The position numbers were made by a program, and so were the translations under genes. Of a DNA stretch of 64,000 bases, positions 10,570 to 41,049 are shown in pieces. The notes under the pieces are model-generated. The model was not told where the DNA came from, did not search any database, and saw only the letters and a list, made by a program, of their open reading frames with translations. Location of the stretch: assembly GCA_965649765.1 (NCBI GenBank), contig OZ287752.1, positions 47,182,001-47,246,000 of the forward strand. Direction: 5' to 3'. Within the stretch, counting starts at the first letter, position 1. Each line of letters begins with the position of its first letter. The DNA is from Bispira polyomma. Taxonomy: Eukaryota.

Positions 10570-10628
10570 ATGGGATGCCGCTCTGGATCTCAACTCTATC
10601 TCAGCTTCAGACTATCCAGAGGTGTTGT
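10570..10628 (+). CDS. FGF8/17/18: FGF8/17/18-like gene, coding exon 1 (MGCRSGSQLYLSFRLSRGV-V, signal peptide n-region)
   Basis: ATG at 10570 and a consensus donor GTAAGT at 10629 in phase 2, which joins exon 2 in frame. Vertebrate FGF8 likewise splits its signal peptide over exons 1A/1B. This is the least certain exon. Confidence 0.7.
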
Positions 10629-11756
10629 GTAAGTATTTCACTTGTCTGCTAGTAGAATGGGGAGCTTAAAGGTCAGGGAACTGGTAGCTAATGAAACACT
10701 GGCCTGCTTCTGTTTACTCTCTGGTTACCAATAGGTAACAGTCTAAATTTACAGATAATTGACACAGTCTCAGGGATTTAACGGGATGAAGTTATCAGAG
10801 AGTTCACAAAAGAGGGGTACTTGCGTAGAGGGCTCTATATTTTTGTTTAGGCCCTTGATTTGATGGGCTTTACAGTTGTCCCATATAAATAAACATGTTT
10901 GTGCGTATGTCGACTTTCTAGGAGACTTTTGGATTTTGTCGAAATGAGCATAGTTATAGAATCACACAATTGCATATACTTGTTATTTCTACAACCATAT
11001 TACGCAGATACGTCGCCTATGTGTGACAATATAATTACAATGTGACTCTAATAGATGAATCTGTTAGAATAATGCAGTAATGCAGTGAGATTGTAACTGT
11101 GGTGAAAATGCCAATGTGGATACATCAGGCATGTTAGACGTAAATCAGTCCATAGATACAACCTGTGGTTCCACATTGAACACACAATCAGGGTTTCCAT
11201 AGGTGGCCACGGTACAAATGTCTTCATGGTGTAACATGCAAAATCAGAGGCAACTATAATGACATGATTTCAATAATCATGCAAAACGTTTATATAGTTA
11301 GTATGTAGTTATCTTGTCAAAACAGAGTAGTTGTCTAGCATTAGGTGAAGGGTCTTGTATTACAAAGTGAAGGGAGGTATTCTACAAAGTTGGTTGTGGT
11401 GTAAGTCTAAAGGCTGTTGTGTAAGTTGTTATGACTTGTGTAGGCTCCCTATAATCTAGGGGTCAGAGTGGACCCCTTTCACAGATGACAACAAAGACTG
11501 TTGTGTATACTCGGGCCACACATTTAAAGTAACAACTAAAGTTTGTTCTAAACTGAAGGTTGTTACAGTGTTTATCCAGACCCTCTCCAAATGACTGTAT
11601 TAGGTGTACCTCTTGACCTTTCCCTTATATTAATTATTTGGAAACCTGGTTTGAATTCCTAATAAAGCTTATAGATGAAGTGTGTGGGTAAATACAGAAC
11701 AGTCCCGGCACCCCATCAATAGTGTACTGCAATGTGAGGACCATTAGACCCTCTAT

Positions 11757-11861
11757 ACCCAAACATGCCAGGGTTGTACTATAATATTAACACTACACTC
11801 AAACATGCCAGGGTTGTACTATAATATTAACACTACACCCAAACATGCCAGGGTTGTACTA
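11757..11861. repeat. 40-bp tandem repeat, about 2.6 copies
   Basis: acccaaacatgccagggttgtactataatattaacactac is repeated. Confidence 0.85.
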
Positions 11862-14571
11862 GTTGTAAAGTCAGTGTGTTAAGTCACACCCTCTACATGC
11901 TATCTTATGCTAGCTTACTGGTGCTGTGGATTTTAGCAATATCCGAATACTATGCCAATTAAAGTTTAGGCTAAGTTGTGCATTGTGTACAGTGTAGTGA
12001 TGTACTGAAAGATTCCCAATAGACTTGAATGTGTTGACACCAAATTCAGAAGATAGAGCAGAGCTTTACTTTCTCCTACCGCACGCTCACTGTTTGCACA
12101 CAGAGTCTTGTTGATTTGCTCACAGAGTCCATTAAATGGCTCTTTGCACGGACTTAATAGAATGCACACATCCCAGGCTGGTGGTTAGAAAGCCACCTCT
12201 AACAAGCCATTCACTTTGATGATTACTAAACCACCTTAAAGCTCCACGCAAAGCCAGCTGGATGTAATTCCATTCAACCCATTCTCGCTCAATTAAAACT
12301 TTACTGTCTATTTGTTATTAAAGACGCAAATCTATCTTTTAATCTGAACGTGCTCATAAGCCTAGTCACTGAGCCAAATTTGGCCACATCCCCGCCTGTG
12401 TGGTCGAGTCGCACTTTTTGTCAGTAATGGTGTCCTGTGATTAGTGTGTAGACTGTGCAGTGAACTGAGGATACTACCAGGTAGTCATATTGACAGACAG
12501 TTCAGGAGGCTTCTATTCTAGCTGACAACTGAATTTACAAAAATGTAAAAACAATGATTTGAGGCCACGATTTGAGTAAATTCCTATGTTGTGCTGTCTC
12601 ACTTTGAGGTTACCTGGTGTAGTTCTTCAAGTAAGGCTAAATATGAAGGTATATTTTTTAACTAAAGATTAATGTGAAGTTCTTAAACCTTAAGTTTTAG
12701 TGCTCTTTAATTAAAATTTTCTTTTAAGTCTTACGATTTACAACCATCAGAAACTTCAGTATAGCTGAACTCTCTTACTGTTTGAACAGCTACAGTCATG
12801 GAATACCAACGGGTTAAAACATGCCAAAGATCTGTTAAGTAGTAGGTAGTTTAGATGTCCTCTTAGATCACACCTGGTGTTCAATGATGTTTGTGCTGCA
12901 TTAAATAGCTCTCGCTATCTTCTCATAACCCAGTGGTCTCAATGTTTGATCAAGACCTTCAAGTACATAATGCGGCGTTAAATTCCTTTAAAGTCCCTGT
13001 TTATCATGTCATTATTGATTCTTACTAAATCTAGAAACCTCTTTTTCTAATCAAGGAAATAATGAGAAATGGAAGACACCTAACATAAGTTACTATTTTG
13101 TAAGCTTAATACAATACAATCTGGGTAGATGTTTGAATTTGTAATGAGAATGTGATCTCCCTATCAAAATCACCTCGGTGTTAGTGCATGACTTTGATTT
13201 ACTAACTTAAAGATACCACTAAAGATATCCCCTGCATTTCTAGAATGTTTTCAGCTTATCACTGCAACAATATTAAACCCTATATTTGTATTCACCAATC
13301 CCACACTTTGAGTATTGTTTATTAAGGGGATGGCTATTGTAGAGACCGACAAAGACATAGATCATTGACTGCACAAGGTAACAAGCAGACCATATGATAT
13401 CACTGGTTGGGGGACTAGAGGAGGGTTAGTAGTGACCTGGACAGACATCTTATTATGTATTCGGACCATATGAACCGAAAAGCCTTCTCATATCAAATCA
13501 GTACAAAGCTCATTGTAAATACATTTACACACTATCATATCATTAACTTGGTCTAATAATACAAATTGTGCAGCTTTCTAAACTCCTATTTGTAGATGGC
13601 AGGTAGCCTTCCCCATAAAACAGCCATTACACGTGTAAGTGTGAAGACGTCTTCTTTTATAGGAGGCATAGGATCTTTAAATAAGGAGAGACTAACTTTA
13701 CCTGACACATGCACCCTGATGCTATAAACTGACTAGACACGCATGCTGTAGCAAGTCTACTTTAAGGTGACCTTAAGTGTGGGGACGGACGTACTTTGCC
13801 GTAAAGTTGTCAGTGACATTCACAGAACAATGTGTTCCTTGTAAGTCGGCTTAAGAGAACCCTTTTAGCGCACCATTAGATGTCTAGGTAAAACTAATAT
13901 CACCCCCGAGATTGTCTCTCAAGTGTTCTTAGTACTTAGTAGTATTTTAATAAAACTAACTTTAAAAGATCCTGTCATTTCTAACAACCCTTGAATTTTG
14001 AACCCCATTTCAATGTAAAGAGATGGCTGAATAGCAGTGAGTTCTTTAAGAGATGACACTGTTATATGATTTGTGTTTTATGTGGCATCTATCTAAAGTA
14101 CAAGTCACACCTATACCATTCCCCTGGGCTGGTACAAAGAGGAAAACACTCGGTTATGGTCGTCAAATAGGATTAAAGGTGCCAAGTTAGGGTATAGCTC
14201 TGGACTGTTGGTTGTTTGGGGAAGGTTCCAGTAGAACAGTCTCACACTTCTGTCTGTACAGGCTCTACACTCGCCATTCCATTCACTCTCAACAACACAG
14301 AATTCGACCAAATGATAACTTGATCAATTGGTATGTGGGTCATGTAAACTATCTTTATATTACTTGGTAGGTTATATAAAATTGTAATTAGAGTGAATAC
14401 AATGTGAGGTACAGACAAATTCATCAAGCTGATATTTTAATGATTCATTCCAGACGTTGTTAGGTCGATACATATTTTTAAAATTGTTATTTCATTGATT
14501 CTAGACATTTGAAAGTAAAGACAGGTTAATGAAGGTGGTATTGTGACATGATATTGGTGTGTTTGTTTCAG

Positions 14572-14617
14572 ATACCTGGCTCTATTTCTGGTTACTCTAC
14601 TGTTTGGAATGGTCAAG
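14572..14617 (+). CDS. FGF8/17/18: FGF8/17/18-like gene, coding exon 2 (YLALFLVTLLFGMVK, signal peptide hydrophobic core)
   Basis: Acceptor gtttgtttcag and donor AAG|GTAAGC; 46 nt, phases 2/0; hydrophobic stretch. Confidence 0.8.
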
Positions 14618-16771
14618 GTAAGCTGGCTCTTTGTTCTCTATACAATACAAAACGTAGGTTACAGTACTCTACTACTGTTATAATGATATTAACCAAAATT
14701 CACGAACTATCTATTATACTATGTTAAAATAATACATGATTTTATAATACTTGTTACTATTTACTGTGGGATCATGCAGGTGGATTTGTATGTCTGCAAA
14801 GTTACATACCACAACCGAGTAATCGCAAAGAAATTATATCTTGGGACCAGTTACTTTGGTGGTAGTAGCAAATATTCAAACTCTTACATGTAATGGGTGT
14901 TGTATGTACATAAAGTAGAACATTGCAGTCCAATACAGAATAGGTAGTGTCGTTAAATGCAAGTTCTTCAGTTAGGTGCACAAATTCGCACATACAACAC
15001 AAAATGTATTTTAAAGTTAGCATTGAACAAAAGCTGAGGCATTTCTATAATAGGATTGACTTTCAATTGATGCTACAGTCTAACTAATATTTTCATTACA
15101 ATAATATTACACTGTTCAGTAAAGAAGTAGCTAAAACCAAACAGGAGAGAAAGGTTAACTGTAACTTTAAGATTTTTACATTTTCTTTTGAGGCACAAAT
15201 ATATTTTTAAAATTTAATATAAAATACGTACACCCCAGTTTCCACAAATATGATATTAACAAGATCCCACAGACTGATGTAAAAGGCTAAAGTTTCAAAG
15301 TGGCTTGAGAAAGTAGATATCATGGTGTCAATTGTTTTCATGCTGCCGTCAACCTGTTCATTAGTCATAATCAAATCTTCCAGTTTGTGTATCACAGAAT
15401 TGTGGTCGTTTGAGTGTAGTGTGTGTCCACAACTTTAATAAATGGTTACACAGGAACCTGGGACGCCTAATCAAATGGGCCAGTTATTTGTCACACTTTG
15501 ATACCAAGCTAGCAGAATAGGAATGTGACATGTTCTGATCCAAAGCCTTGTGGTGGCCTCAGTGTACTGATAGCCATAGTGAAGTGTCATGCACACACTC
15601 ATTGTGTATGCTTTAAATAAACTAGATTTTGGTTAAAAGTTTACTGGGCTCTTTTCAGATTCAGTCTTTGACTGTATGATAAACAATAAAAAAAACTGTA
15701 TAGTCCGAGTTGACTTAAGTAGGCCCTGCTATTTGTCTAGCATGGTTGTATCTGTACAATGTATACACATCCTCTATTTGAAAGTTACAGATGGACTGCT
15801 AACAAACTCTCCCCGAATTACATTTGGGATCGGAGTTATGTACATGGCCCAACAGCCACTACTACACTGTTGTAGCCTGTTACAAATATCTTGATTGCAA
15901 GGGCAAGGATTAGGACAAGTGATCAAATATCACTAGAAATGTGGTGGGGCTTTATAATAGACCATGATGTATGCTGGAGGAGTATAAAAAAACATAGTGG
16001 TTTAAGTAGGATTTTTAGGTTCTGAGGTGCATCATATACAGAACTACTGTGTATTACACATACCTAGATCCTTAGCTATGTCCCAACTGATGTTGTTTCA
16101 ATGGTATGTTCTGTGTATTCACTGGTTGCAGCCATGTATTCAATACCAACACCTTCTAAACTAAAGAGTTGACTCAGTTTGAAATTACACTAGTCAGGAA
16201 TGTGTGATGTTTACACTGTATCCTTAGGTTTGGCTGTTTTGGTGATTCAACTGATTGACAACATCTGAGTCTCATCTAAGGGGCACTCATTATCTCATGG
16301 TGTATACCAATTGGTTTACTTTCACGGGTTACAATTCACATTCTACACAGTGGTTTAATATATTTACAGATATAAACTTTAAGATATACTTGAACCAGTG
16401 AGACGAACCCCAAATCATACGCTTGGAACAAATCAATGCAGATGTTTGGCATAAACGAATGCCAGTACAACACAAAGACACAGACACACTATACAGATTT
16501 GGTTTTTGGTTTGACATTTTGTTTGGGTGGAAAACTAAAATGACATAGGAGCCGCGCAGATATCCTCTTCCAGTATGTTATCATTTGATCAGAAATACTT
16601 GATAGCTATAGCAGAACACCTTTAACCATGTCTCAAAAAGAGGCCTCACCAAGTAGTTACATTCAACTTTAGCAGGTCTGCTCTCACATTGCCCAGGGAA
16701 TGACTTCATCCAGTGCTTCTTGTCCTCATACTCAGCACTTTATGTACCCATACACCATACATTTATACCCT

Positions 16772-16793
16772 TATATATATATATATATATATA
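16772..16793. repeat. (TA)n microsatellite
   Basis: About 11 TA units. Confidence 0.9.
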
Positions 16794-18304
16794 AGTGGCC
16801 CACATTTTAATGTAAGTGACACATTATCTGAAGAAACCGTTTAGAGCATTTTAGAAATTCAACTATGAATATATATCACTTACTTCTCCCACCAATAAAT
16901 CAAATCTATGACACTCATCTTATTTAATCACTTCACAAATCAGAATTATAGTGAAACAGATTTCACTGTTATCATTATCACTGTAAAATATATCAATCTG
17001 TCTATGGCTTTTTAAAGAGAAACTTGTTTTTGTTTAAATATCCTCAATGCTATTTAAGAACTTTTATGTTATACTTGAAAACGCAACATGGTAGTTTGGG
17101 GTTTGGATCATTTATACCTTTTATAAAAAGGTTTGATTTGATAATATATCATACTTCTTGAATATCTTTTACCAGCAAGGCCATGGGGTTATGCGTCTCT
17201 TACTTTTCTTTCTGACACCTAACTAAGGCATAGGATTGCAGCCTCGTGTCAGTAGAGCCATGTATCATGAAGAAATGATTGAAGTGAAAGGAAATAAATA
17301 ACTGAGTCTCACATAGCTTATAGCTTCAGGTAGAAACATTTACTGATGTGAACATATTCAAATTAAATGTGAAAGTATCTCATTTTAAATTACACCTTGT
17401 ACTGTTGCCCTGTGATACTCGCTTGAAAGGCTATAATTTCCACAGAATCTAAGAAGAAAGAACGTCTCTACTTATTTAGTAAATGAGCATTCATATCTTA
17501 AAATTATAAAATATAGCTTTTTGGACTTGTGTGCAACATATAAGGCTAAATATAATGACAACATTAGATAATTATGGACTTGTGGCACAACTTTCATTCA
17601 ATAAAAACACATATATCCTGTAATTTTAGCTACAAAACTGTGTATCTTTACTTGTCAAGGTGAATTAATTGAAAAAATAAATACAAATTTTTTTCGTGTA
17701 AAATCTGTCCAGATGAATACAAATGTAGTGTAAATCAGGACGGTTTGCAATGTTATTGTATATGGACCACCTTTGGCACACGATCTTCTTAAACCAGAAG
17801 AGTAGCCAAGCCTTCCACAGAAACCCCTGCACACTCTGTAACAACTAATGTAAATCTAGAGCTATGTTAGCAGTTTGATAGGTTTGTCCAAAGATGGATT
17901 AAGACAAGTCTTTAAGACTTCGTGGTATTACCAAAACAGTCATGCCAAGGCTTTTAAATTTAACAATATCCCAAAAACATTAACAGGCAAAGTATAGCCC
18001 TCCTTGTGTGTATTTATGTGTTCATAACTAGGTAGAAAGGGTTCACATTGACTGTAAGTACGTGTATACAAATAATATAATACTTCGTTCAGACACTAGT
18101 GTTAACTAGACCTCAGTTGTGACATTGTCCAAATCCAGTCACTTTTAGCTACAAACCTCTTTTGTTCAAGTGTGGGCTATGCCAAAGTGTTTGTTATCTA
18201 CCACTCCTGATATCTCCTAAGTAGTAGCTATTTAACTGGTGGTTTATGTGTACCCCAATGCGTGTACACATAGGGATGTACTCTCTATACTGTTTTGTAC
18301 ACAG

Positions 18305-18512
18305 GGGGTGGATGGTGTGATGGGCACTGACTTGAGTTCTGATAACATGGACAACCTGCATTCTACCCAGCCCCATCATGTTCAAAGACGAAGTGTTGGT
18401 CTGGGCCGTACAGTGACACTGACCAATGAGTGTACACACAGAGAGGTGCAGGTCATTGGCAGACGGATCAATGCCCTGGGTAAAGTGAGGAGGCCTAGAA
18501 GAAACCTACAAG
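18305..18512 (+). CDS. FGF8/17/18: FGF8/17/18-like gene, coding exon 3 (GVDG...HHVQRRSVGLGRTVTLTNECTHREVQVIGRRINALGKVRRPRRNLQ)
   Basis: Acceptor tgttttgtacacag and donor AAG|GTAAAC; 208 nt, phases 0/1. EVQVIGRRINALG aligns with FGF8 HVQVLANKRINAMA. Confidence 0.88.
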
Positions 18513-18589
18513 GTAAACCATATGCAGTTTACTTATACACCAACAAATAGTGTTATTGAGGCTTCAGTCTGGCTACTGTTCTAACCCCA

Positions 18590-20640
18590 CGACACTAAAT
18601 TCTCATGTGTGACCCCCTTGTGTGTCAATGTGTACATCAGTCAATCCCTGACACTAAAGTCTCATGTGTGACCCCCTTGTGTGTCAATGTGTATATCAGT
18701 TAATCCCTGACACTAATGTTATATGTATGACCCCCTTGTGTGTTAATGTGTACATCAGTCAATCCCTGACACTAATGTTATATGTATAACCCCCTTGTGT
18801 GTCAATGAGTACATCAGTCAATCCCTGACACTAAAGTCTCATGTGTAACCCCCTCGTGTGTCAATGTGTACATCAGTCAATCCCTGACACTAATGTTATA
18901 TGTATGACCCCCTTGTGTGTCAATGAGTACATCAGTCAATCCCTGACACTAAAGTCTTATGTGTAACCCCCTCGTGTGTTAATGTGTACATCAGTCAATC
19001 CCTGACACTAATGTTATATGTATGACCCCCTTGTGTGTTAATGTGTACATCAGTCAATCCCTGACACTAAAGTCTTATGTGTAAACCCCTTGAGTGTTAA
19101 TGTGTACATCAGTCAATCCCTGACACTAAAGTCTCATGTGTGACCCCCTTGTGTGTCAATGTGTACATCAGTCAATCCCTGACACTAATGTTATATGTAT
19201 GACCCCCTTGTGTGTTAATGTGTACATCAGTCAATCCCTGACACTAATGTTATATGTATAACCCCCTTGTGTGTCAATGAGTACATCAGTCAATCCCTGA
19301 CACTAAAGTCTCATGTGTGACCCCCTCGTGTGTCAATGTGTACATCAGTCAATCCCTGACACTAATGTTATATGTATGACCCCCTTGTGTGTCAATGAGT
19401 ACATCAGTCAATCCCTGACACTAAAGTCTCATGTGTGACCCCCTTATGTGTTAATGTGTACATCAGTCAATCCCTGACACTAATGTTATATGTATGACCC
19501 CCTTGTGTGTTAATGTGTACATCAGTCAATCCCTGACACTAATGTTATATGTATGACCCCCTTGTGTGTCAATGAGTACATCAGTCAATCCCTGACACTA
19601 AAGTCTCATGTGTCACCCCCTTGTGTGATAATGTGTACATCAGTCAATCCCTGACACTAATGTTATATGTATGACCCCCTTGTGTGTTAATGTGTACATC
19701 AGTCAATCCCTGACACTAATGTTATATGTATGACCCCCTTGTGTGTTAATGTGTACATCAGTCAATCCCTGACACTAAAGTCTTATGTGTAAACCCCTTG
19801 AGTGTTAATGTGTACATCAGTCAATCCCTGACACTAAAGTCTCATGTGTGACCCCCTTGTGTGTCAATGTGTACATCAGTCAATCCCTGACACTAATGTT
19901 ATATGTATGACCCCCTTGTGTGTTAATGTGTACATCAGTCAATCCCTGACACTAAAGTCTCATGTGTGACCCCCTCGTGTGTCAATGTGTACATCAGTCA
20001 ATCCCTGACACTAATGTTATATGTATGACCCCCTTGTGTGTCAATGAGTACATCAGTCAATCCCTGACACTAAAGTCTCATGTGTGACCCCCTCGTGTGT
20101 CAATGTGTACATCAGTCAATCCCTGACACTAATGTTATATGTATGACCCCCTTGTGTGTCAATGTGTACATCAATCAATCCCTGACACTAAAGTCTCATG
20201 TGTGACCCCCTCGTGTGTCAATGTGTACATCAGTCAATCCCTGACACTAATGTTATATGTATGACCCCCTTGTGTGTTAATGTGTACATCAGTCAATCCC
20301 TGACACTAATGGTATATGTATGACCCCCTTGTGTGTCAATGAGTACATCAGTCAATCCCTGACACTAAAGTCTCATGTGTCACCCCCTTGTGTGTTAATG
20401 TGTACATCAGTCAATCCCTGACACTAATGTTATATGTATGACCCCCTTGTGTGTTAATGTGTACATCAGTCAATCCCTGACACTAATGTTATATGTATAA
20501 CCCCCTTGTGTGTTAATGTGTACATCAGTCAATCCCTGACACTAAAGTCTTATGTATGACCCCCTCGTGTGTCAATGTGTACATCAGTCAATCCCTGACA
20601 CTAAAGTCTTATGTATGACCCCTTCGTGTGTCAATGTGTA
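18590..20640. repeat. 59-bp tandem array, about 35 units, two interspersed subtypes
   Basis: Period 59 (gaccccc at 18611, 18670, 18729). The subtypes are ctaaagtctcatgtgtg and ctaatgttatatgtatg. Confidence 0.95.
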
Positions 20641-23600
20641 AAGCAATCAATCTGAAACTGACAGACTTTTTGTGGTGTCCATTCGATAAGATCTTGTTTT
20701 GGAGAAGGTAATGCATTGAAGTCCAGTGTGTCAGTATTTGCATTGTACGTACCCGGTGCCACGACCTCTAATCTCCTTCATACCACATTGATCAAGGTAC
20801 CTTGGTGCACTTCATCCACAAATAAAACTGACACAAATATTTAGAAGTAAAACGTGTGCCTGATTTATTGCATTCTTTACTTGAAATCAAACCAAGCACT
20901 TGAGAAATCTGAGTCTATAGACTGCAAGCGCTGATAGTTAACATTCAACAAAAGCTAGAAGACTGCCTACATTTGACAGAAGTACATGTAGGCCTAACAG
21001 ATTAACCTCTGGTACAAGAAGACAAAAAACAAATGTTTATACCACTAACTACCAGGTTATATGTTGAACAAACACGTACTTCCTCACTCTCTAGTCGCTT
21101 GATCCTTACTATACATGTATAAGCTGATTTACAATTCTTCAGCCCTAGTAATTCTCTCCTAGTCCTGGCTGTTTTGTCTTGGGTTGCCTGTATGAAATGT
21201 AAATAGATTACTTCCAAGCTGACCTGTGTAGGTACAACAGGTGACAGTTTGTTAGTCTTTGTCACTGTGATCTCTATATACCCACACATACACGGTCTAT
21301 AGCCATCTACCACTAGGACTTTCTATGTAAAGTGTCAAAACATCTCAACATGTAAACATATAGGCATGGTCTTGTGAATGAGATGTGATATTACACATTC
21401 ATATTTTGTATTATATAATTTTGTATGACCCGTAAGCCCTGTTCCATTTTTTCCCAGTCCAGGTATTTTTGGATTACCTGTATAGTAAATGTGATGGGTT
21501 GTTAGTTTTTATAGGGTGGGATTATGTACCCCATCCGTTAGGCTCGTACAAATATCACTAATTTTAATCTTTACAGAATACTATTGTGTACGTCACATGT
21601 GCTATCTTTCAATCAGAGGTGGTGCTGAGAGGTAAAGCCTGTCTCAGTAGGGGGTTACCTACTAAAAAACAATAAGGGTGTGTATGCAGTTAGAATAAGT
21701 GCTGACATAGATCCTTGTTAGTCTGTCCTCACACACTTCTGTATGTCTACACTCCAATATGGCTTTGTTTGCGGCTCTTGCTATTCTACCAGTGATCCAG
21801 ATCCACTTCTAAAGTGAAGCAATCTTAGTGTGGTCCTGGTTCCTCATTGTCTTACAGTATCTGTGTAAACCACAATTAACCTCAAATACATGTGATAACC
21901 CCTCTACCTTTACAAGTCCATTGTACACGTGGGTTGGTAAATTAACTAGATGTCTTACTGTAGTTAATGTCTCGTGTTGTAAGACTATATACATGAAAGG
22001 CCAGGGGTTTGAAGACTGTGACCAAGTTGTTGGGCAGTGAGCTATGAATGAGAGCAAGCTGGCCTTAATGTGGCAGTGAGAGGACTTACTGCTATGTTTG
22101 TACTGCTGACACCAACATGAAAGGAGCCAACACAAGCCTCGTATTGTTTGGAAAAGGATAACTAAGTACTTCACTGCTTGTTTTCACACCTTGAAAATCC
22201 CTCAAGTACATACCGTAACATGGCTAATAGACACTTCAGTCGTCATCCGAGTACCAACTGCTTCCTCAAGTGGCGTCTCTTCTTCTCCCACTTTCAATGA
22301 GTAGTTTTACCTTAAAGCTGGTAAATAATACAGCCCCTCTAGGGTACAGACTGTCAATGGTGGCTGGTTACACCACTACTTTAAGACTTCCGTACAGAGA
22401 TTTCTGGCCCTAATACCGCCTGGTTAGTACTGTTTATACAGATATGCTACATGTCTGGTCGTTCAGAGAATGTGTATTGTATAGCATTCTAGTGCTGTAG
22501 TTAACAACGATACTCCAAACTATACTATTGACCACATTCAGATAAGACTAGTCAAAGTTCCACTCTCACATATAAATCATCCATGCATATGTAGTTAATA
22601 TCAGCTGGCCAGTCTTATACACAATGTCACGTTGAAGTCTTCTACACTCAACCTTGTGGCACAAATGGAAATCGATCTACCTGTTAGCACATCGATTAAT
22701 GACTGAATTCAAACAACTGTTGGGTTTAGTTAAATAAGATGGGCGCACCGTACACACTAAACAACCACATCAATATTATCTTGTGAATTACATACATCAT
22801 ATTTTTTTGGGATTGAAACCCCCAGATTGTATGTTCACCGTTCAGAGATGATTATAGATATTGAAGTGAAAGCTTTTCAAGAAGACATTGACCATATTTC
22901 GATGTTTTTCTTCCTAAAGTGGAAAACATTAAACTCTTATATTGTTGACATAATTTATCAAGTGTCCTCATGCTGGTGAAGTAATAACAAGAACAGGATA
23001 AAAAGCCCCCATGGGTAGACATATACACATTATCTGCTGACCTAATAATAGGCTAAGTTCTTAAATAGCTCAAAACAAATGACACAACGCACAGGTAGAT
23101 GTTTTTTACTGGTATTAGATGTTTTGACTGATATAAAATCATTTTAGGAATGTCAGAAAGTAAATGTAAAATCTTTACCTACATAGCGCGCATGACAAGC
23201 ATATCATACATGACATCAACTCAAACCATCCTAATTCATTACTAACGCATTTTTGTGCCAGTTCTATCCTCCAAATAACAAACTTACTATAAGTTCAATT
23301 GTGAAGCTCTATATCTCATTATAAGACTAGAGATTCTTATTAGTTCAAATGGCCCCCTAAGAAGAAGGATTCCTAACTTTTTAAATTATCATAAACAAAT
23401 TTGTTTCTCAATATTTTGAAACATATAATTCACCCATACATTAAGTGTTAAAATAAATCAAATAAAGGGACAGATCAATGCCACTGCAAACAAGGGTTAG
23501 ATCTTTGGGCTAATCAATGAGGAGGGATGGGGCAAAAAACATCAATTCTCTGAGGAAAAAACTAAAAGATACTCACAAAAAGATCAGTTTGTGTCTGATA

Positions 23601-24100
23601 TAAATATATAAAATCAATTCAAATTATAATCCATATGTGAAAGTTAAATTCGAAGTATAAATGATGATCCAGTTTGCATTTTGTTTCTACTGTAGCTTCC
23701 ATTTCACTTTAAATCCATTCGGTCATTTGTGTCAAAATTTCCTCAGAGAAAATTCTGAATCTCTAATATAGAATATTTAGCACTGGTTATGTGAAAGAGA
23801 TTGTACTAGGTGTGGCAATGTATGTCACTGGTTGTATTCCAGAACAAAATATGACAGCATTCACATTGGGTTTGTTGTTTTATCTGACGTCATACCTCCC
23901 CAAGTTCCAACATTTAGGCCTTCATACAAACATACACGTTTTTTGACATTCCACAGAGTCCGGAGACCTAGCTTGATGCACCTGCAGTCTCTAAGTTGGT
24001 CTGTATGCTTAAAGATAAAAGTGATGGGCAGAAGTAGCTTATCTCTTGATTGACGTCTATTGTTATAAAGTTTAGGCAGAGCCATATGTATTAGACTGGT

Positions 24101-24532
24101 TGCCATTGTTAGCCTGTGTGAGGCGCTCTGTGTCATTGTTAGCCTTGTCAAGCGCTCTAAAAACATGCTCCGTCCACTGTATGCCATTGTTAGCCTGTGT
24201 GGGGCACTATAGAGAATGCTCTGTCCACTATATGCCATTGTTAGGCTGTGTGAGGCGCTCTAGGGAATGCTCTGTTCACTCTATGCCATTATTAGCCTGT
24301 GTCAAGAGCTCTAAAAACATGCTCCGTCCACTGTATGCCATTGTTAGCCTGTGTGAGGCGCTCTAGAGAATGCTCCGTCCACTGTATGCCATTGTTAGCC
24401 TGTGTGAGGCGCTCTAGAGAATGGTCTGTCCACTGTATGCCATTGTTAGCCTGTGTGAGGCGCTCTAGAGAATGGTCTGTCCACTATATGCCATTGTTAG
24501 CCTGTGTGAGGCGCTCTAGAGAATGCTCTGTC
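24101..24532. repeat. 51-bp tandem array, about 8 units
   Basis: atgccattgttagcctgtgtgaggcgctctagagaatgctccgtccactgt at 24335, 24386, 24437 and 24488. Confidence 0.92.
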
Positions 24533-26166: not shown

Positions 26167-26273
26167 CTCAGCTTTTAATGACTTCACAGGGAGACTTTGG
26201 AAAAGTGACAATTCAAAGTGATCGCTCCAAAGAATATATCTGTTTCAGCTCCCAGGGAAAACTAACAACACGG
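26167..26273 (+). CDS. FGF8/17/18: FGF8/17/18-like gene, coding exon 4 (AQLLMTSQGDFGKVTIQSDRSKEYICFSSQGKLTTR)
   Basis: Acceptor ttgtaattgcag and donor CGG|GTAAGT; 107 nt, phases 1/0. It has the same length and phases as the FGF8 exon encoding [36 protein letters not shown]. It is absent from the ORF track. Confidence 0.93.
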
Positions 26274-31339: not shown

Positions 31340-32380
31340 CGGTGATCTGTAAGGTCAGTGATATGTCAGATATATGAGGTCAGTAATATGTCAGATGTGT
31401 AAGGTCAGTGATATGTCAGATGGGTAAGGTCAGTGATATGTCAGATGTGTAAGGTCAGTGATTTGTCTGATGTGTCAGATCGGTGATATGTCAGATCAGT
31501 GATATGCCAGATGTGTCAAATCAGTGATATGCCAGATCAGTGATATGTCAGATAGGGGAGGTCGGATGTGTAAAGTCAGTGATATGTCAGATGTGTAAGG
31601 TCAGTGATATGTCTAATGTGTGAGATCAGTGATATGTCAGATCAGTGATATGCCAGATCAGTGATATGTCAGATAGGGGAGATCAGATGTGTAAAGTCAG
31701 TGATATGTCAGATGTGTAAGGTCAGTGATATGTCTAATGTGTGAGATCAGTGATATGTCAGATTGGGGAGGTCAGTGATATGTCAGATAGGGGAGGTCAG
31801 TGATATGTCAGATAGGTAAGGGCAGTGATATGTCAGATGGGTAAGGTCAATGATATGTCTAATGTGTGAGATCAGTCATATGTCAGGTGTGTGAGGTCAG
31901 TGATATGTCAGATGTGTAAGCTCAATGATATGTCCGATGTGTGAGGTCAGTGATATGTTAGATGGGTGAGGTCAGTAATATGTCAGATGGGTGAGGTCAG
32001 TGATATGTCAGGTGTGTGAGGTCAGTGAAATGTCAGATGGGTGAGGCGAATGATATGTTAGATGGGTGAAGTCAGTGATATGTTAGATGGGTGAGGTCAG
32101 TGATTTGTCAGATATCTGAGGGTAGTGATGAATGAAGTCAGTGATGAGTTAGCTCAGTGATGTGTCACGTGTTATTTCAGAAGTGTAAGATCAGTGATGT
32201 ATATTGATGCCAGTAATGTATCAGGTTAGTGGTATGTATTGATGTCAGTAATGTATCAAGTTACTAATGTGTATTCATGTCAGTAATGTATCAGGTTACT
32301 GGTGTGTATTGATGTCAGTAATATATCAGGTCAGTGATGTGCTGATGTCAGTAGTGTATCAGGTCAGTTATGTGTCAATG
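31340..32380. repeat. Degenerate minisatellite, about 25-bp unit (aaggtcagtgatatgtcagatgtgt), grading into an about 35-bp variant
   Basis: Period 25 at 31401 and 31426. The core gtcagtgatatgtcagat recurs throughout. Confidence 0.9.
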
Positions 32381-34724
32381 TAGTGTTGTCTTATGGTGAC
32401 AAAACAAGAAAGGCCTCACCTTTTACAAAATGATTTTAACCTTGTTTTTGCACTAGATATTGTCCAACTTTCTGTATTGTTTTATTAATTTGAGTTCTTT
32501 GGACTGTGAGAGGAGATAAGAAACTGTTTTGCAGACACTTTCTTTGATCTTTCTCTTTAAATAAAGCACAGTGATATTTGTAAAGTTGTTAATTTTAATA
32601 TCTTGATAGGATGAAGTAGTGTAAGTGATAGACTGGCCATGTGTTGACAGGAGAGCCATTTAACTGTCCAGAAAATTTACTTTTTGAGTAGGGAATCAAG
32701 TTTTTTGCAAATAACATCTATGATATATGATCAGTTAGTCATTTGGTAATATAAATGAACGTTTTTAAGGTTGTTGGATGTTGTTGACAAATTATGAAAA
32801 TAATTGTTAATGTAAACTACCTACTACACACTGTTTAATTGGAGTGAAATAGCAGTGTTTTTATTTGTGCTTGATGTTTTGATTAATATTATAGTGCATG
32901 TTTTACTTGAACTAATAACTGGCAATTAAACATGTGGCACTTACTTGCTGAAAGGAAGACGTTAATTACCTGCATGTGGTAAAGCTGACTAGTTAGGTCA
33001 GTTTGTATATGGGGAGAGTTTCATGCAGGGGTAGTTTAGGACAGACCAGCAGAGAGTCCCCCTCTAGTGTATGACAGTGTACTAATGAAGTGCTAACACA
33101 TACAAACACTCACAAAGGACACCAGCTTCTACTTAATACAGACCAGTGTGCAGTGTTTGCGTGTTGAGTGTGTTGATTTCAGAAGTCGGTGTTAATGATG
33201 TTTGAGCACAGTTGGACGGTGTCTCATTAGTGATGCTGTGCATGCAGACATAGAGTGCTGTGATGCGTGCCCTGAGATCGGGCTATGTCACACTGTCTGA
33301 CCCCATGTGGTCACTACACACATATATAGGTCTCTGGTCACTGAGGTCACGGCCTGACATCGACAACTCCACTACCTAATGACCATTTGTTGTGTGACTC
33401 ATTACCAATCTCACCAGATTGATGTCCTATTGATAAATAGTTCGTACAGCAGCATGCCTTAATAGGCTGTAGTGGCGAGACACCACCTTGCTGTATGCTA
33501 TACACGCCAAACACCGCCTGTATGACGTGTATCCCCCACAAACCCCCACACCTCACACACACCACTCACCAGGCCTATTTGGGGCATTATTGGACCCACA
33601 ACTTCCCCCTTCTAAAGAGGCAAAGTGCTACAATTGAACCTGGTGAGACAAAAAGTGTAAAGGCCATTTAGTGGGGAGTAAAGTGAACAGATGTATAGTC
33701 TGTTTAATCTCAACTCTGACTCACAATGCTAGCTTTGTCCAGAACACGGTGGGGGCGGGGGCTGACATAACACAGAGCTTAATTTAGATAGGACACCCCA
33801 CTCAGGCACCAGATTACACCTCAAACACACAGCCCACGCTGTACATAAGTTGTACATCTCCCAGTCAAAAAGCTGGATGAAATTAACCATCTCACCGAAT
33901 TACAATGTCATCTCAAAACGCCCCCAACACATCACTATTCATGATATTGTATAATAACTTGCGCCAATACATAAAGGGCCACAGAACCAGAGGATGCCAG
34001 CCACAGATAAGTGTGAACAATAACGGCCTTGTGATGGAAAACTGTGTGGGCATAAAACAGAAAACATCTCCCCCTGATTCTATGATTGGGGTTAAAGTGA
34101 CCAAACTAGCGTTTGAATTGATATAACTTCACCCCATGCAACAATGTCCAGCTTGTTGTACTCAGTCGTGGTTGACCTTGATCTAATGTCCTACAACCTG
34201 CAGTTGTAGAGGTCACATTGTGCTTGTGCAGCTGCGTTTTTGTTAGATATGTAGCCAGAAAAGGGGCCTTTGTTTTCAAGGCAGCTATAAGACACCATAG
34301 TTTAGAGTCTGTGACCACGTCACCATAAAGTCAGGACTAAAATTCATCAGATAATAATATGTAATTGCTTTATTTCAGCTTTACGATGCTTACCTCTCTT
34401 CTAAATTCTGTCCTCAAATCAGGCCTGACAGAGTGACATATAATCAGATCTCTGTCACGTGGGCAGCCTTTTTAGGTTTTCTAGCTGAGTAGTTTGGTAA
34501 ACAACTGATTACATAACTCTGTAAACTTGGTCTCGGTGCCTGATAGAGCCCAGTGGTAATATCCACACTGATTATGTCTATTTTAGTCCTTCCTTTGATG
34601 TCACGCTTATTTAACCATATTGAATAGTGCAGCATGCTCTACTTTGTTATACTAACTACAATGTGCATATATATTGTGTAGGGTGACTAGTCAGTGAGGC
34701 TGAGACCCAGTCACTCTTGATATT

Positions 34725-35855
34725 GTGTCCATGTCACACTGTCTCTCAAAGTCCTTATCTTATCCCATGTCACACTGTCCCTCAATGTCCCTATCTTATC
34801 CCGTCATACTGGTAACTCTGTCCGTCCATGTCCCTATCTTATCCCATGCCATACTTGTAACCCTCTCCCTTAATGTCCCTATCTTATCCCATGTCATACT
34901 GGTAACTCTGTTCCTAAATGTTCTTATCTTATCCCATGTCATACTGGTAATTCTGTCCCCCAATGTCCATATCTTATCCCGTCATACAGGTAACTCTGTC
35001 CCTCAATGTCCCTATCTTATCCCATGTCATACTGTCTCGCAATGTCCTTATCTTATCCCATGTCATACTGGTAACTTCTGTCCCTCAATGTCCCTATCTT
35101 ATCCCGTCATACTGGTAACTCTGTCCCTCAATGTCCCTATCTTATCCCATGTCATACTGGTAACTTCTGTCCCTCAATGTCCCTATCTTATCCCGTCATA
35201 CTGGTAACTCTGTCCCTCCATGTCCCTATCTTATCCCATGTCATACTGGTAACTTCTGTCCCTCAATGTCCCTATCTTATCCCGTCATACTGGTAACTCT
35301 GTCCCTCCATGTCCCTATCTTATCCCGTCATACTGGTAACTCTGTCCCTCCATGTCCCTATCTTATCCCATGTCATACTGGTAACTTCTGTCCCTCAATG
35401 TCCCTATCTTATCCCGTCATACTGGTAACTCTGTCCCTCCATGTCCCTATCTTATCCCATGTCATACTGGTAACTTCTGTCCCTCAATGTCCCTATCTTA
35501 TCCCATGTCATATTGGTACCTTCTGTCCCTCAATGTCCCTATCTTATCCCATGTCATACTGGTTACATTGTCCCTTAATATCCCTATCTTATCCCATGCC
35601 ATACTGGTAACCCTCTCCCCCAATGTCCCTATCTTATCCCATATCATACTGGTAACTCTGTTCCTCCATGTCCCTATCTTATCCCATGTCATACTGTCTC
35701 TCAATCTCCCTATCTTATCCCATGTCATACTGTCTCTCAATGTCCCTATCTTATCCCGTGTCATACTGTCTCTCAATGTCCCTATGTTATCCCATGTCAT
35801 ACTGTCTCTTAATGTCCCTATATTATCCCATGCCATACTGGTAACCCTCTCCCTC
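34725..35855. repeat. Minisatellite, 43-46-bp unit with 36-bp deletion variants
   Basis: Core gtccctcaatgtccctatcttatcccatgtcatactggtaactct. It explains the repetitive ORFs at 34725-35903. Confidence 0.93.
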
Positions 35856-38379
35856 ACATACACTCTCACACAGGCTGTGCGGAGGGTCTCTCAGTCCACT
35901 TAAAGCTCCAATAGATTGAGCTATCTAGCGATGATCTGAACAAATCTGTGCACACATTCTCATTTGCCAAGTGCGAAAGCCGACGGTGATATATGACCGC
36001 GTCTCTTTGATATGTTTTAAAACGCCTGGGGAGATCTAGGTTTGCTATAATCTTTACTCTTGGAACCTTGTTGTTGTAAAACACCGATTAGAAAAAGCTC
36101 CTTTCCAATTTTAAAAGAATCAAACGTGAGGATGTGGCCTCCAAAAGCGTGAGGAGCCTGGTTAGTGGTTTGAAGAGCCTGATGAGAATTAAGGTATTTA
36201 TTGGATAGAGATCTGGTATGATGTCTGACAATTAGGTGACATCCCCCCTGGGTAGGGTATAGCCATATAGCCACCAATAGCTACACCTACTGGAGAGAGA
36301 CTATTGAGATAGTCATTTACTATGTAAACTCATGGCTGACTACTTACTTCTCAACACAATGAGACTACATTAAATAGCTGTTGTGCTAAAAATCTGGCTT
36401 TTTGAACTCAATTAATGCAAAGATAATTTAATAAAGAACTTTAGATTGCACATTTTCATCAAATAGTCGTTCCTCAAATACACCATTTTATTGGCCAAAA
36501 TGATTGCACTGTTTGAGTGAAAGTTCATAAAAACACCCTCTGTGACAGGATACATACAAATGACTGGTGCATATTTAAAATACCTCAGAAGACATTCATT
36601 CCCAGTTTTTATATGCAGTCACTTTATAGAAGTGCAAAAGGTGACTTTAAATTTATTTTAAATAAAGTATTAAGGCCATAATTTAGAGTGACTCTGTAAC
36701 TTGTCACTCTGTGAACCGTGATGTGCATTTTAGAGCCCCATTATACAGAGGGGCTGCCTGCACTGGGTAGAAGGTAGAATGATGTGATGTCCTTTAGTGT
36801 GACAACCACTCGAAACATGGCACAGAATTTATCAGCTTGCTATTGTGTGGCAGTCCATATACTGGTGTAAGGTTGTCCGGCTCTAAATCTCCAGTGGGCC
36901 TTCACCTGTGTAAACTTTCAACTAGAAGCACTCAGCTGTTTACCACATGTTGTTAATTGTATGTCCAGAGTGCTAATCACTGACTAGTACCTCTACACAG
37001 CAAAATCCTCTGATAATTCAAATATTAAAACTATGGAATAAATTATACTGTAATATATATAAAATATATACATATAAATGGAGTTGTTTAGAAAGATAAG
37101 TTTCACTTTAGACGAAAAATAAATAAATAATAGGTTATATTTGGCCCATTTTATAGATATTATATTTGAATGATATTGGACCCAATTTACGTTTTCATAA
37201 CACAACTTAATGTAGTATAGATTTTGTACTATATTTTCCCTATGTTCCCTTTGTTGATGTTGGAGTACAAAAAGTATAAGTTTAAGAGGAACACAAATAT
37301 AGCCAACTTATCCTGAACTGCTGTCAAAGAACTTCAGGTAAGTGTGTAAAGTATTTCCTGGCAGTTTATCTGTGGAGTCTCAGTTTACCTTACAAGGAGT
37401 GCTTCCAGCCGGGATATACATACTAGGGCAAGACGGGGCCTTTGACAAGGTGTGCCAACTATCTGCGGCCACTGAGTCTAATTAAATGGTTTCTGTATTT
37501 ATATCAAGACTTTCAATGGTTATGTGTAACCCGATACCTGCTTCAATCTTGATTTGAATACTACTTCTGTTCAATACAACGGGTGCTTACAGATGATTGA
37601 TTGTAAGCTTGCAGTTTGTAGTCATTCCTGACTGACAGCCCAGTGAATGTAGTCTGTCTCAGATATTGAGAGATTCACAGTAACTGTGTTATTCAGGTAG
37701 AACAGCACCAATCCATGTATACAGGCAACCATGTATTCTCTCATTCAGTGAAATCCATAAAAAACCATTAAATGAGATCCTCTTCTAGAGAGGAATAATA
37801 CAGCATCTACATAAGTGACGGTCTTTGCAAGAAGCTTTTATTAATGTCTTTTTAGGCGATGAATTTTTCATTGTGATGCAACTTGATCTGTCCCATACAT
37901 CAAACAGTAGATAAGGTGCCCCTGACAGGGCCAGGATTTATGTGGGGAGATGTTTGTGCTGCTGTCCCCCTTGTCACCACTAGAGATGGGTTTTTTCTCT
38001 CTGTTAGCTGAGACCTGTGATAAACTGGTACTGACTTACTCCACCGCTTCTAGCGTGAACTGATCACTATCTTTTGTAGTACACTGGCCGCCACAACCTG
38101 TGCCCCACCTCGGGTGTAATACACAGCCCCACAACGTGTAGGGAACCTCTTCTTACGTGTATTAAGTGTATTATAAATTGCCCCTCAAGACAAGTGTCAA
38201 GAATACAAATTTCTCAGAATATTTGACACCATACACCACTAATAAATGTCAGTGGTTTATCAGGCTGGCATTGCAGAAAATATACTCTCAATAACGATTA
38301 AGCTTATTGTTTAGGTCATTAAATTATAAAATTACACGTCTTACATTTGGTAGCAAAACATGTCCACCTAAAGCAAGCC

Positions 38380-39425
38380 ATACATTCACCATGTATAAGG
38401 GCTGCCCATGTAATATGTGCATTCACCATGTCTACGGAATGTCAATGTAACATGTGCATTCACTAGTATACAGACTGTCAAAGTAACATGTGCATTCACC
38501 AAGTATACAGACTGTCAATGTAACATGTGCATTCACCATGTACACAGACTGTCAATGTAACATGTGCATTCACCATGTATACGGACTGCCAATGTATACA
38601 GACTGCTAATGTAACATGTGCATTCACCATGTATACAGACTTTAAAAGTAACTTGTGCATTCACCATGTATACAAACTGTCAATGTAACATGTGCATTCA
38701 CCATGTATACAGACTGTCAATGTAACATGTGCATTCACCATGTATACAGACTGCCGATGTAACATGTGCATTCACCATGTATACAGACTGTCAAAGTAAC
38801 ATGTGCATTCACCATGTATACGGACTGTCCATGTAACATGTGCATTCACCATGTATACAGACTGCCTGGATCAATATTGTTAAAGGTAGCACATGCATTC
38901 ACCATGTATATGAACTGCCTGGTTCTATACTGTTAAATGTAACACGTCCATTCACCATGTATAAGGACTGTCAATGTAACATGTGCATTCACCATGTATA
39001 ATGACTGCCTGTATCTATACGGTTAAATGTAACACATGCATTCACAATGTACACGGGCTGTCAATGTCACACATGTATTCAGCATTAATACGGACTGTCT
39101 GGATCTATACTGTTAATTGTAACACATGCATTCACCATGTATATGAACTGCCTGTATCTATAGGTTAAATGTAACACATGCATTCACAATGTACACGTGC
39201 TGTCAATGTCACACATGTATTCAGCATTAATACGGACTGCCTGGATCTATACTGTTAATTGTAACACATGCATTCACCATGTATACGGACTGCCTGGATC
39301 TATACTGTTAATTGTAACACATGCATTCACCATGTATATGGACTGCCTGGATCTATACTGTTAAATCTGGCACATGTATTTACCATGTATACAGGCTGCC
39401 TGAATCTACAATGTTAAATGTAACA
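38380..39425. repeat. Minisatellite, 37-bp unit (gtaacatgtgcattcaccatgtatacagactgtcaat) changing to a longer about 52-bp unit
   Basis: Visible tandem periodicity. The 3' units carry an extra gcctggatctatactgttaa segment. Confidence 0.92.
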
Positions 39426-40617
39426 AGCTACTAAGAAAATACTACGCCGTTCTAATGATAGGATGTGAAATCCCCAGTTGAGAAATTCAAGACCCCATTA
39501 GGTCACAAATATACTCTCCCCCAGCTATTCATAGGTAATTACAGGTAGGAATCCACTCTAAACTGGCTTCTATTCAGCCTTGTAAGTTCTGCCATTGGAT
39601 AGGTTATCATTGAATCAGTGACAAGAAAAAGGCAGAAACATTTTAAGTAGAATGTGTAACTGAAGAAGGCTTGAGTAGGAAATTAACTGGGAGGGGGTCC
39701 CATAAATAGACATTGTTGACTTTCTGAAAGGATTAACCCACAACAGTACACCCCTTGTGGCCATCTTTATAAGGGAACTCTTTTTGTACACCTCCTATAT
39801 CAATACGCTAAATGTTCTCATGTTATTGTACAGCAATTTGAGATGTTGATTCTTCCTCAATGTTTTAAATGTGTAAGTGGAACTTTAAAGTAGTTATTTT
39901 ATTTTATAAACACTCAGATAATAGCAGTTGGGGATATCACATATTTAGTTAAGCACTGTCTGGGGTTTTTTGAAGAGGCGATGTGAACTAACCCTGTGAC
40001 CTTTGCATTCAATAGTAGACGTGTTTGATGTTCTATATTAATATAGTGTAATTACTGTCACATATTTAATACCATGAAAAGAGGCTGACCCCAATGTTAA
40101 AATAATATGGCTAAACTTTAGAAATTTTGTAATAAAGTAGAATAATCTATGGCTGTGTGAGGTAGATAATAGGAACCTGCAGTTGTTACCTGACTCAGTG
40201 GTCATGACCTCAAGGGGTTGTCAACCTAAATCAGGAAGTGTGTAAACCACTTTTTACAGATATATAGACCTCCTACATTAAGTCTTTGAAATGGCTTTAA
40301 AATGTAAAGACTGTAACTCTACTCTGGCATTCTAGTATGAGATGTCCTAACCATGTATTTGCTGGAACTGAGTTCTACCAAAACATGATAGGTAGACATT
40401 GTGTATTGCTCTTAGATATCTCTATTCGAATTACATTACCTAAGTAAGGAGATTTCTCAGAACATGGAAAATGCATTATATCTTTTATTTTGGTATATGA
40501 GTGGAATCCCTGTAAAAAACTGAATTGAATTTCATATAACATTTCTTTATGATACCTTGAAAACAGATATTCCTTAATTAAAGTAATATTAATACGATAC
40601 TTTGCCTGTATTTTCAG

Positions 40618-41049
40618 ACCACCAAAACAGGAGGGGACTGCATATTTAAAGAAGTAGCTGAGCATGGAAAATACAAATACCAGTCTGTGTCACACCCTAG
40701 TTGGTACTTGGGTTTTAAACGCAGTGGGAAGAAACTCAAGGGTAACCTTTATATTAAGAAACCTCGACTAGGCACATGCTATTTCTTCACTAAACCACCT
40801 ATACGTGGTAGTAAGAGTGGGCGAGACCCCTACGCCCCAGATGTAGACTTTGACTTGTATGAACCACACAGCCGAGGTAGAGGGGGACATCATCGTCCCC
40901 GCGGTACCCCTCAACACCCCCACAGACACCCCCGATATGAGGGCTACTCACCAAACTCCAACAAGAAGTATGCACCCAATATAGACTTGAGCAAACTCAC
41001 CTTACCCAGACTACGACATGGACACTTAAGGAGAAGAGCGAAAAGTTGA
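40618..41049 (+). CDS. FGF8/17/18: FGF8/17/18-like gene, terminal coding exon 5 (TTKTGGDCIFKEVAEHGKYKYQSVSHPSWYLGFKRSGKKLKG...RRRAKS*)
   Basis: Acceptor cctgtattttcag, phase 0, in frame with ORF 40687-41049. DCIFKE and WYLGFKRSGKKLKG align with FGF8 DCVFTE and WYMAFTRKGRPRKG. TGA stop at 41047-41049. Confidence 0.93.
   Translation, partial: TTKTGGDCIFKEVAEHGKYKYQSVSHPSWYLGFKRSGKKLKGNLYIKKPRLGTCYFFTKPPIRGSKSGRDPYAPDVDFDLYEPHSRGRGGHHRPRGTPQHPHRHPRYEGYSPNSNKKYAPNIDLSKLTLPRLRHGHLRRRAKS

What the first reader, a model, noticed from the sequence alone, without database searches (positions are those of the whole stretch)
10570..41049. Hidden 30-kb FGF8/17/18 gene with vertebrate-like exon architecture but a divergent core
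Seen: five GT-AG exons (59, 46, 208, 107, 432 nt; phases 2,0,1,0) splice into one open 283-aa protein. Established: vertebrate FGF8 has a signal peptide split over two small exons and a 107-nt phase 1/0 core exon. Finding the same layout in an invertebrate implies deep conservation of these introns. The core is divergent (LTNECTHREVQV for LYSRTSGKHVQV), so it may be a lineage-specific paralogue that is easily mis-annotated.
Basis: partly seen in the sequence, partly recalled or inferred. Interest (0 to 1): 0.7.

Follow-up and report, generated by a model that had tools for sequence, protein, structure and literature searches.

The report
Ordinary spiralian FGF8/17/18 growth-factor gene
Five predicted exons spread over 30 kb read as one intact gene that is most likely this invertebrate's single, ordinary copy of the FGF8-type growth factor; its intron layout appears shared with vertebrates and with other molluscs and worms, so it is a new member of a well-known family, not a new kind of gene.

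Summary
No RNA run was available, so the splices are predicted. The host is a spiralian animal. The protein groups with mollusc and nemertean FGF8/17/18 (99/97), scores 124 bits on their profile against under 5 for the genome's two other FGFs, and lies on the chromosome with Tlx, Msx, DPCD, O-GlcNAcase and nucleoplasmin, as vertebrate FGF8 does. It is the only FGF8-like gene found, so 'lineage-specific paralogue' is not supported. The two core introns are pan-FGF and already published as ancestral. The split signal peptide is the informative part, and annotated Lineus and Gigantopelta isoforms already imply its first junction. The 'divergent' motif is largely the spiralian norm: its Cys, and a second Cys near the core's end, occur in 5 of 5 full-length invertebrate relatives and 0 of 118 vertebrate rows, a likely extra disulfide. 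Ordinary gene, modest comparative value.

The parts
10570..10628 (+). Coding exon 1 (59 nt): start codon and basic n-region of the predicted signal peptide; phase-2 donor GTAAGT
   Evidence: one of 8 candidate first exons, so the least certain exon
14572..14617 (+). Exon 2 (46 nt, phase 2/0): hydrophobic core of the predicted signal peptide
   Evidence: only hydrophobic candidate of 5 upstream of exon 3
18305..18512 (+). Exon 3 (208 nt, phase 0/1): N-terminal linker with a dibasic site, then strands 1-3 of the FGF core with Cys78 and a short basic insertion
   Evidence: no Pfam or PDB hit on its own, aligned to relatives
18371..18512 (+). Possible shorter form of exon 3 from an in-frame internal CAG acceptor (would drop 22 residues); untested
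   Evidence: AG before 18371 with 10 of 13 pyrimidines against 8 of 13 for the main acceptor
26167..26273 (+). Exon 4 (107 nt, phase 1/0): middle of the FGF core with Cys130
   Evidence: Pfam PF00167 E 1.4e-4; found by the Lineus protein at 43% identity
40618..41049 (+). Exon 5 (432 nt with stop): rest of the core (Cys148, Cys194) and an 85-residue basic, His/Pro-rich tail
   Evidence: Pfam E 2.1e-5; best PDB hit FGF8b 2fdb; 83% identical relative P0001, tail included in the alignment
10535..10552 (+). Five-codon upstream ORF just before the start codon (function unknown)

Best explanation
This is most likely the genome's single FGF8/17/18 orthologue, a predicted five-exon gene for a likely secreted paracrine growth factor. 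Shown: the open frame, the FGF core, the hydrophobic N-terminal stretch, the basic charge (51 Lys+Arg against 19 Asp+Glu) and the grouping with spiralian FGF8s. Inferred from the family: the signal peptide of exons 1-2 sends it into the secretory path; residues 71-199 fold as a beta-trefoil; the basic surface and tail bind heparan sulfate; the ligand dimerises an FGF receptor and drives MAPK signalling in embryonic mesoderm and ectoderm, as for other spiralian FGF8/17/18 genes. Inferred here: Cys78 and Cys194 form an extra disulfide that ties the first and last strands, a feature shared by invertebrate FGF8s and missing in vertebrates. The five-exon layout is inherited, not a local invention.
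For: Tree of 18 core sequences: window + 5 invertebrate FGF8s 99/97 starred; these + 10 vertebrate FGF8/18/24 against the two other own FGFs 98/97. Profile scores: 124.1 bits (invertebrate FGF8 profile) and 59.0 (vertebrate profile) against 4.7/2.9 and 34.3/31.3 for own genes A/B. Named nearest full-length relatives are annotated FGF8/17/18-like in Aplysia, Gigantopelta, Lineus. The Lineus protein searched against the genome finds only exons 5 and 4 of this gene; Pfam finds only this gene and two three-exon genes on C1. C5 (8.5% of the genome) holds the only nucleoplasmin match, all 4 DPCD matches, all 7 O-GlcNAcase-family matches, Tlx and Msx, the company of vertebrate Fgf8 in PMC2446394. Isoform N-termini diverge just before the hydrophobic stretch in Lineus and Gigantopelta and in vertebrates. 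A model of the Lineus relative matches FGF18 and FGF8b best, with its two extra Cys at the end of the first and start of the last core strand.
Against: No splice junction was observed in RNA. The window has the longest branch of the tree (3.07), long branches meet, the outgroup is only two own-genome FGFs, and the AU test does not reject grouping it with them (p 0.064). Core identity to vertebrate FGF8s (25-27%) is no higher than that of own genes A and B (24-32%). Exons 3 and 4 alone hit nothing in PDB. Own-genome searches score only the best candidates (11, 2 and 5), so a very divergent second copy could be missed. Synteny is chromosome-scale only (nearest marker 4.9 Mb away); both Sprouty matches lie elsewhere; the nucleoplasmin match is weak (E 0.006). 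The disulfide distance could not be measured.
Confidence: 0.85

Rival explanations
1. It is a fast-evolving lineage-specific duplicate of FGF8/17/18, with a more conserved sister copy elsewhere in the genome.
For: Longest branch among the six invertebrate rows; lowest identity to vertebrates among them (25-27% against 26-37%); own-genome searches are lower bounds.
Against: No second copy in three searches, including one with a distant orthologue that would favour a conserved copy; ancestral chromosome and full ancestral exon layout; lophophorates and annelids studied carry one FGF8/17/18 (PMC8180254, PMC8224027).
Confidence: 0.07
2. The FGF core exons are right but the 5' end is different or variable: another first exon, several alternative first exons, or the internal acceptor at 18371 is used.
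For: 8 candidate first exons at 5 donor sites; Lineus and Gigantopelta each have three annotated 5' ends at this junction; in-frame acceptor at 18371.
Against: The 10570 start has a purine at -3 and G at +4 and a GTAAGT donor and gives a basic n-region like the Lineus and vertebrate N-termini. This rival is compatible with the best explanation as to gene identity.
Confidence: 0.25
3. It is a divergent FGF of another subfamily drawn to the invertebrate FGF8 group by long-branch attraction.
For: AU p 0.064; PDB margin for exon 5 is small (20.7 bits FGF8b, 17.5 FGF2); only two outgroup rows.
Against: 120-bit gap on the invertebrate FGF8 profile; shared Cys pair; five-exon layout, described as particular to this subfamily in cyclostomes (PMC13591910); chromosome-scale synteny.
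Confidence: 0.05
4. It is a silent or decaying gene.
For: None positive.
Against: Intact frame and splice sites over five exons; a relative keeps 83% identity in the exon-5 core and a similar tail.
Confidence: 0.02

Closest known systems
Spiralian FGF8/17/18: Lineus longissimus XP_064631508.1 (P0028), Aplysia californica XP_005093476.2 (P0005), Gigantopelta aegis XP_041368625.1 (P0024), Arion vulgaris A0A0B6ZME6 (P0023)
   Same: 29-35% core identity, same clade (99/97), four core cysteines, hydrophobic N-terminal stretch, isoform break just before it.
   Different: Longer branch, 3-residue basic insertion at the end of exon 3, 1-2 fewer residues in the exon-4 stretch, longer His/Pro-rich tail.
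Vertebrate FGF8/17/18/24 (PDB 2fdb FGF8b, 4cjm FGF18)
   Same: Five coding exons (PMC13591910 for cyclostomes), signal peptide split at a phase-2 junction and closed at a phase-0 junction (inferred), 35 full codons in the middle core exon, linkage to Tlx, Dpcd, Mgea5, Npm (PMC2446394).
   Different: 25-27% core identity; two extra Cys absent from 118 of 118 vertebrate rows; exon 2 has 15 full codons against 12; no N-glycosylation sequon; no tight gene-order conservation.
The genome's two other FGF genes (C1:53,384,847 and C1:53,414,108, minus strand)
   Same: Same two core introns, phases 1 and 0.
   Different: Three exons, unsplit signal peptide, middle exons of 104 and 152 nt, 18-22% core identity to the window protein, no extra Cys pair.

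Membership tests
FGF family (Pfam PF00167) | FGF core domain by profile | tested here: met
   Exon 5 25 bits over the 24-bit cut-off, exon 4 22.3 bits; Atlas first hit FGF 0.95
FGF family (Pfam PF00167) | Complete beta-trefoil fold | tested here: inconclusive
   Core aligns end to end without a large deletion; only the Lineus relative was folded, not this protein
FGF family (Pfam PF00167) | Two conserved core introns, phases 1 and 0 | tested here: met
   Introns 3 and 4, at the places of those in own genes A and B; ancestral per PMC11733497; predicted from DNA only
FGF8/17/18 subfamily | Phylogenetic placement with FGF8/17/18 | tested here: inconclusive
   99/97 with invertebrate FGF8s, 98/97 against two own FGFs; AU p 0.064; other subfamilies not sampled
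FGF8/17/18 subfamily | Profile score well above other FGFs | tested here: met
   124.1 against 4.7 and 2.9 bits; 59.0 against 34.3 and 31.3 bits
FGF8/17/18 subfamily | First coding exon subdivided (five or more exons) | tested here: met
   feature from PMC13591910 and PMC10146080; predicted, no RNA
FGF8/17/18 subfamily | Linkage with Tlx/Lbx, Npm, Dpcd, Mgea5 | tested here: met
   All on C5 at chromosome scale; Lbx named from a recalled signature (PDB search found nothing at 1e-20)
FGF8/17/18 subfamily | Cleavable N-terminal signal peptide | tested here: inconclusive
   Hydropathy peak 3.0 at residues 19-27; no signal-peptide predictor on hand
FGF8/17/18 subfamily | Binds heparan sulfate and activates an FGF receptor | not testable with these tools
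   Inferred from family and charge

The most novel reading that the evidence does not exclude
The five-exon layout, with a signal peptide cut by a phase-2 intron and closed by a phase-0 intron, is a marker of FGF8/17/18 that dates to the last common ancestor of protostomes and deuterostomes and can place FGFs whose sequence is too divergent for trees; and invertebrate FGF8s carry a disulfide between the first and last core strands (Cys78-Cys194 here), near the heparan-sulfate surface, that vertebrates lack. An in-frame second acceptor in exon 3 may even give short and long forms like vertebrate FGF8a and FGF8b. I found none of this stated in 8 paper searches.
Probability: 0.45. Interest if true: 0.4.

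Novelty: new member of a known kind. Interest (0 to 1): 0.22.

Why it matters
FGF8/17/18 is already known from cnidarians, annelids, molluscs and lophophorates, so one more orthologue changes little. The use is practical: a correct gene model where single-exon searches barely reach significance, and two cheap diagnostic marks (split signal-peptide exons, extra Cys pair) for assigning divergent invertebrate FGFs, a task that PMC3420111 and PMC8224027 call unresolved by trees alone.

Tried and rejected
RNA support: no RNA holder listed; the three listed runs, laid, cover introns evenly and show no joints, so they behave as DNA and say nothing on expression. Word-indexed protein search with the whole exon 5: 0 of 252 candidates at E 0.01; with its first 66 residues 1 of 10. 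PDB searches with exon 4 and the core part of exon 3: no match at E 10. In one search, 41 hits passed E 0.001; I read 20 of them plus P0001 and set aside the multi-stretch repeat-like ones (P0002 read and rejected as a repeat; the others not read). My first small-exon scan used a pyrimidine filter that dropped the real exon 2; repeated with looser filters. The alternative start at 10575 was rejected: it gives phase 0 and no hydrophobic stretch. Sprouty linkage, reported for Nematostella in PMC2754479: 0 of 2 matches on C5. The 60 kb on each side of the window show only transposon-like long ORFs, by eye. Rfam: no match in the window. A review on Fgf8 isoforms that I recalled is not held, so I saw nothing of it and it may already discuss invertebrate exon structure. 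The PDB ranking with alignment A2 is not counted as evidence, since A2 holds a vertebrate row and not the window protein. No fold of the spliced window protein and no subfamily check of own gene A against PDB were obtained. Supplements of the papers were not opened; the gene-structure figures of PMC11733497 may show amphioxus 5' exons.

Full report
Observation. The quoted motif occurs once, in the frame at 18.4 kb. A scan for AG-GT exons of the stated lengths gave 14572-14617, 18305-18512 and 26167-26273 as the coherent set. With 10570-10628 and 40618-41049 they give 852 nt, 283 residues and a stop, with phases 2, 0, 1, 0 and introns of 3943, 3687, 7654 and 14344 nt, all GT-AG. Pfam FGF matches exon 4 (E 1.4e-4) and exon 5 (E 2.1e-5) in profile order; exon 3 alone matches nothing. 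Exon 2 is the only hydrophobic one among 5 phase-compatible small exons upstream of exon 3. Exon 1 is one of 8 candidates at 5 donor sites and is the weakest link. Contigs of public runs match the exons with no listed difference, which argues against an assembly artefact, though they may be the source data. No RNA holder was listed, so every splice is a prediction.

Host. The window is G000:C5:47182001-47246000 in a 1,035-Mb assembly of 75 contigs. A Hox cluster on C13 includes homeodomains that I read as Post2 and Lox-type (names from recalled signatures), which makes the host a spiralian. I did not try to narrow it further.

What it is. A search of 1.84 billion representatives with the first 66 residues of exon 5 gave 41 hits at E 0.001. 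Of 10 looked up by name, those with names are FGF8/17/18-like from Aplysia, Gigantopelta, Lineus and sturgeon, plus an uncharacterised Arion protein. The closest, P0001, is unnamed and 83% identical and keeps a similar tail. In the core, the window protein is 29-35% identical to five full-length invertebrate relatives (four named spiralians, one unnamed), 25-27% to ten vertebrate FGF8/18/24 rows picked from the 118, and 18-22% to the genome's other two FGFs. It scores 124.1 bits on a profile of the five invertebrate proteins, against 4.7 and 2.9 for the other two genes, and 59.0 against 34.3 and 31.3 on a vertebrate profile. The tree puts it with the five invertebrates (99/97) and these with the vertebrates (98/97). 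Against this, its branch is the longest (3.07), the outgroup is only two rows, and holding it with the two other genes is not rejected (p-AU 0.064).

Is it a paralogue? Pfam FGF over the genome gave 4 matches from 11 candidates: this gene and two genes on C1. Exon 5 found only itself. The Lineus protein found only exons 5 and 4 of this gene. The C1 genes have three exons, with unsplit signal peptides and middle exons of 104 and 152 nt. So this is the only FGF8-like gene found, within the limits of candidate-based searches. Three lophophorates have one copy each (PMC8180254, passages), as do the annelids and Lottia examined in PMC8224027 (passages).

Synteny. Vertebrate Fgf8 lies with Lbx1, Tlx1, Dpcd, Npm3 and Mgea5 (PMC2446394, passages). 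Here the single nucleoplasmin match (E 0.006, 34.7 Mb), 4 of 4 DPCD matches (52.1 Mb) and 7 of 7 O-GlcNAcase-family matches (64.7 and 85.2 Mb) are on C5. Of 106 homeodomain matches, 19 are on C5; two were confirmed by PDB as Tlx-like and Msx-like; Lbx, Hmx, Emx, NK1 and others are named from recalled signatures (the Lbx check returned nothing at E 1e-20). These markers travel together, so the fair chance level is that of one gene falling on C5, 8.5% by length. Gene order is not kept: the nearest marker is 4.9 Mb away. Sprouty, linked in Nematostella (PMC2754479, passages), is on C1 and C2.

Intron layout. The two core introns are not special: PMC11733497 (passages) states that all amphioxus Fgf genes keep them and infers they are ancestral, and both C1 genes have them. 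The 107-nt length equals the vertebrate count of 35 full codons (vertebrate exon edges partly recalled), but four named spiralian relatives have 1-2 more residues in this stretch (counted by hand), so the length is not a stable mark. The 5' split is the informative part. Cyclostome genes of this subfamily have five exons, more than other subfamilies (PMC13591910, passages), and mammalian Fgf8 exon 1 is subdivided (PMC10146080, passage). Among 44 vertebrate N-termini printed, alternative models diverge just before the hydrophobic stretch, 9 of them with Arg at the junction as a phase-2 cut would give, and again after the Gln that ends it. Annotated isoforms of Lineus (4) and Gigantopelta (3) diverge at the same place, with Arg in 4 of 6 distinct 5' ends. 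So junction 1 appears shared by vertebrates, a nemertean, a gastropod and this animal; this is inferred from protein models, not read from their DNA. Junction 2 could not be tested in other invertebrates. Eight paper searches turned up no statement on the 5' introns of invertebrate FGF8/17/18; most subscription papers are not held, one relevant review was unavailable, and no supplements were opened.

The divergent core. That Cys (78) is present in 5 of 5 full-length invertebrate relatives. A second Cys (194), before the last strand, is present in 18 of 18 single-stretch invertebrate-like hits, which were found with a query holding that Cys, and in 0 of 118 vertebrate rows; the first is also absent from all 118. 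In a model of the Lineus protein (mean pLDDT 71.7; best matches FGF18 and FGF8b) the matching residues 66 and 187 lie just after the first core strand (58-64) and just before the last (190-194). These two strands pair in the beta-trefoil and flank the heparin site (recalled), so an extra disulfide is likely, but no distance was measured.

How it most likely works. Shown: an open frame with a basic start, a hydropathy peak of 3.0 at residues 19-27, a dibasic site at 63-65, a full FGF core, 51 basic against 19 acidic residues, no N-glycosylation sequon. Inferred from the family: secretion, heparan-sulfate binding, receptor dimerisation, MAPK signalling in embryonic patterning and regeneration (expression of orthologues in PMC8180254 and PMC8224027, passages). 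The basic tail may limit spread, by analogy with the inhibitory tail of Drosophila Thisbe (PMC2923630, passages); untested. An in-frame acceptor at 18371 could remove 22 residues, loosely like the FGF8a/FGF8b choice (vertebrate forms visible); untested. PMC3420111 (passages) gives the family background.

Verdict. Real, well spotted, and ordinary: a new member of a known subfamily. The deep conservation of the 5' introns is plausible and partly supported; the paralogue idea is not. The scan's own index held no finding on this. Interest 0.22.

Noticed in passing
window 48275-49561, minus strand: Intronless 428-aa rhodopsin-family GPCR, 7 kb downstream and facing the FGF gene; Pfam 7tm_1 E 1.7e-29, best solved relatives are peptide receptors.
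   Followed up: partly
G000:C1:53,372,000-53,414,108, minus strand (L005, L006, L009): Two tandem three-exon FGF genes about 29 kb apart, both with signal-peptide-like starts and long basic tails; one has a 152-nt middle exon with a 16-residue insertion. They group together (98/97); one resembles FGF9/16/20 by eye (recalled, untested).
   Followed up: partly
G000:C5, 61.7-74.9 Mb (L029-L047): A loose NK-class homeobox region with apparent tandem pairs of Msx, Emx and NK1 (names mostly from recalled signatures).
   Followed up: partly
G000:C13, 17.0-17.9 Mb (L050-L058): Hox cluster of nine sampled homeoboxes in order on one strand within 0.9 Mb, with an Evx-like gene at 18.8 Mb.
   Followed up: partly
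window 18591-20652, 24134-24532, 31344-32113, 34775-35856, 38383-39425: Minisatellite arrays (periods 25-59 nt) fill parts of introns 3 and 4; a 59-nt array of 35 copies starts 79 nt after exon 3.
   Followed up: no
L014-L024 (60 kb on each side of the window): Long ORFs look like Harbinger-type transposases and LINE reverse transcriptases, by eye; no host gene recognised.
   Followed up: no
proteins P0053, P0096, P0148: Public vertebrate gene models that fuse an FGF domain with a nucleoplasmin domain, probably mis-joined neighbours.
   Followed up: no
window 10360-10395: A weak TATA-like stretch about 33 nt before an initiator-like word, 180-210 nt upstream of the start codon; may mark the transcription start.
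   Followed up: no
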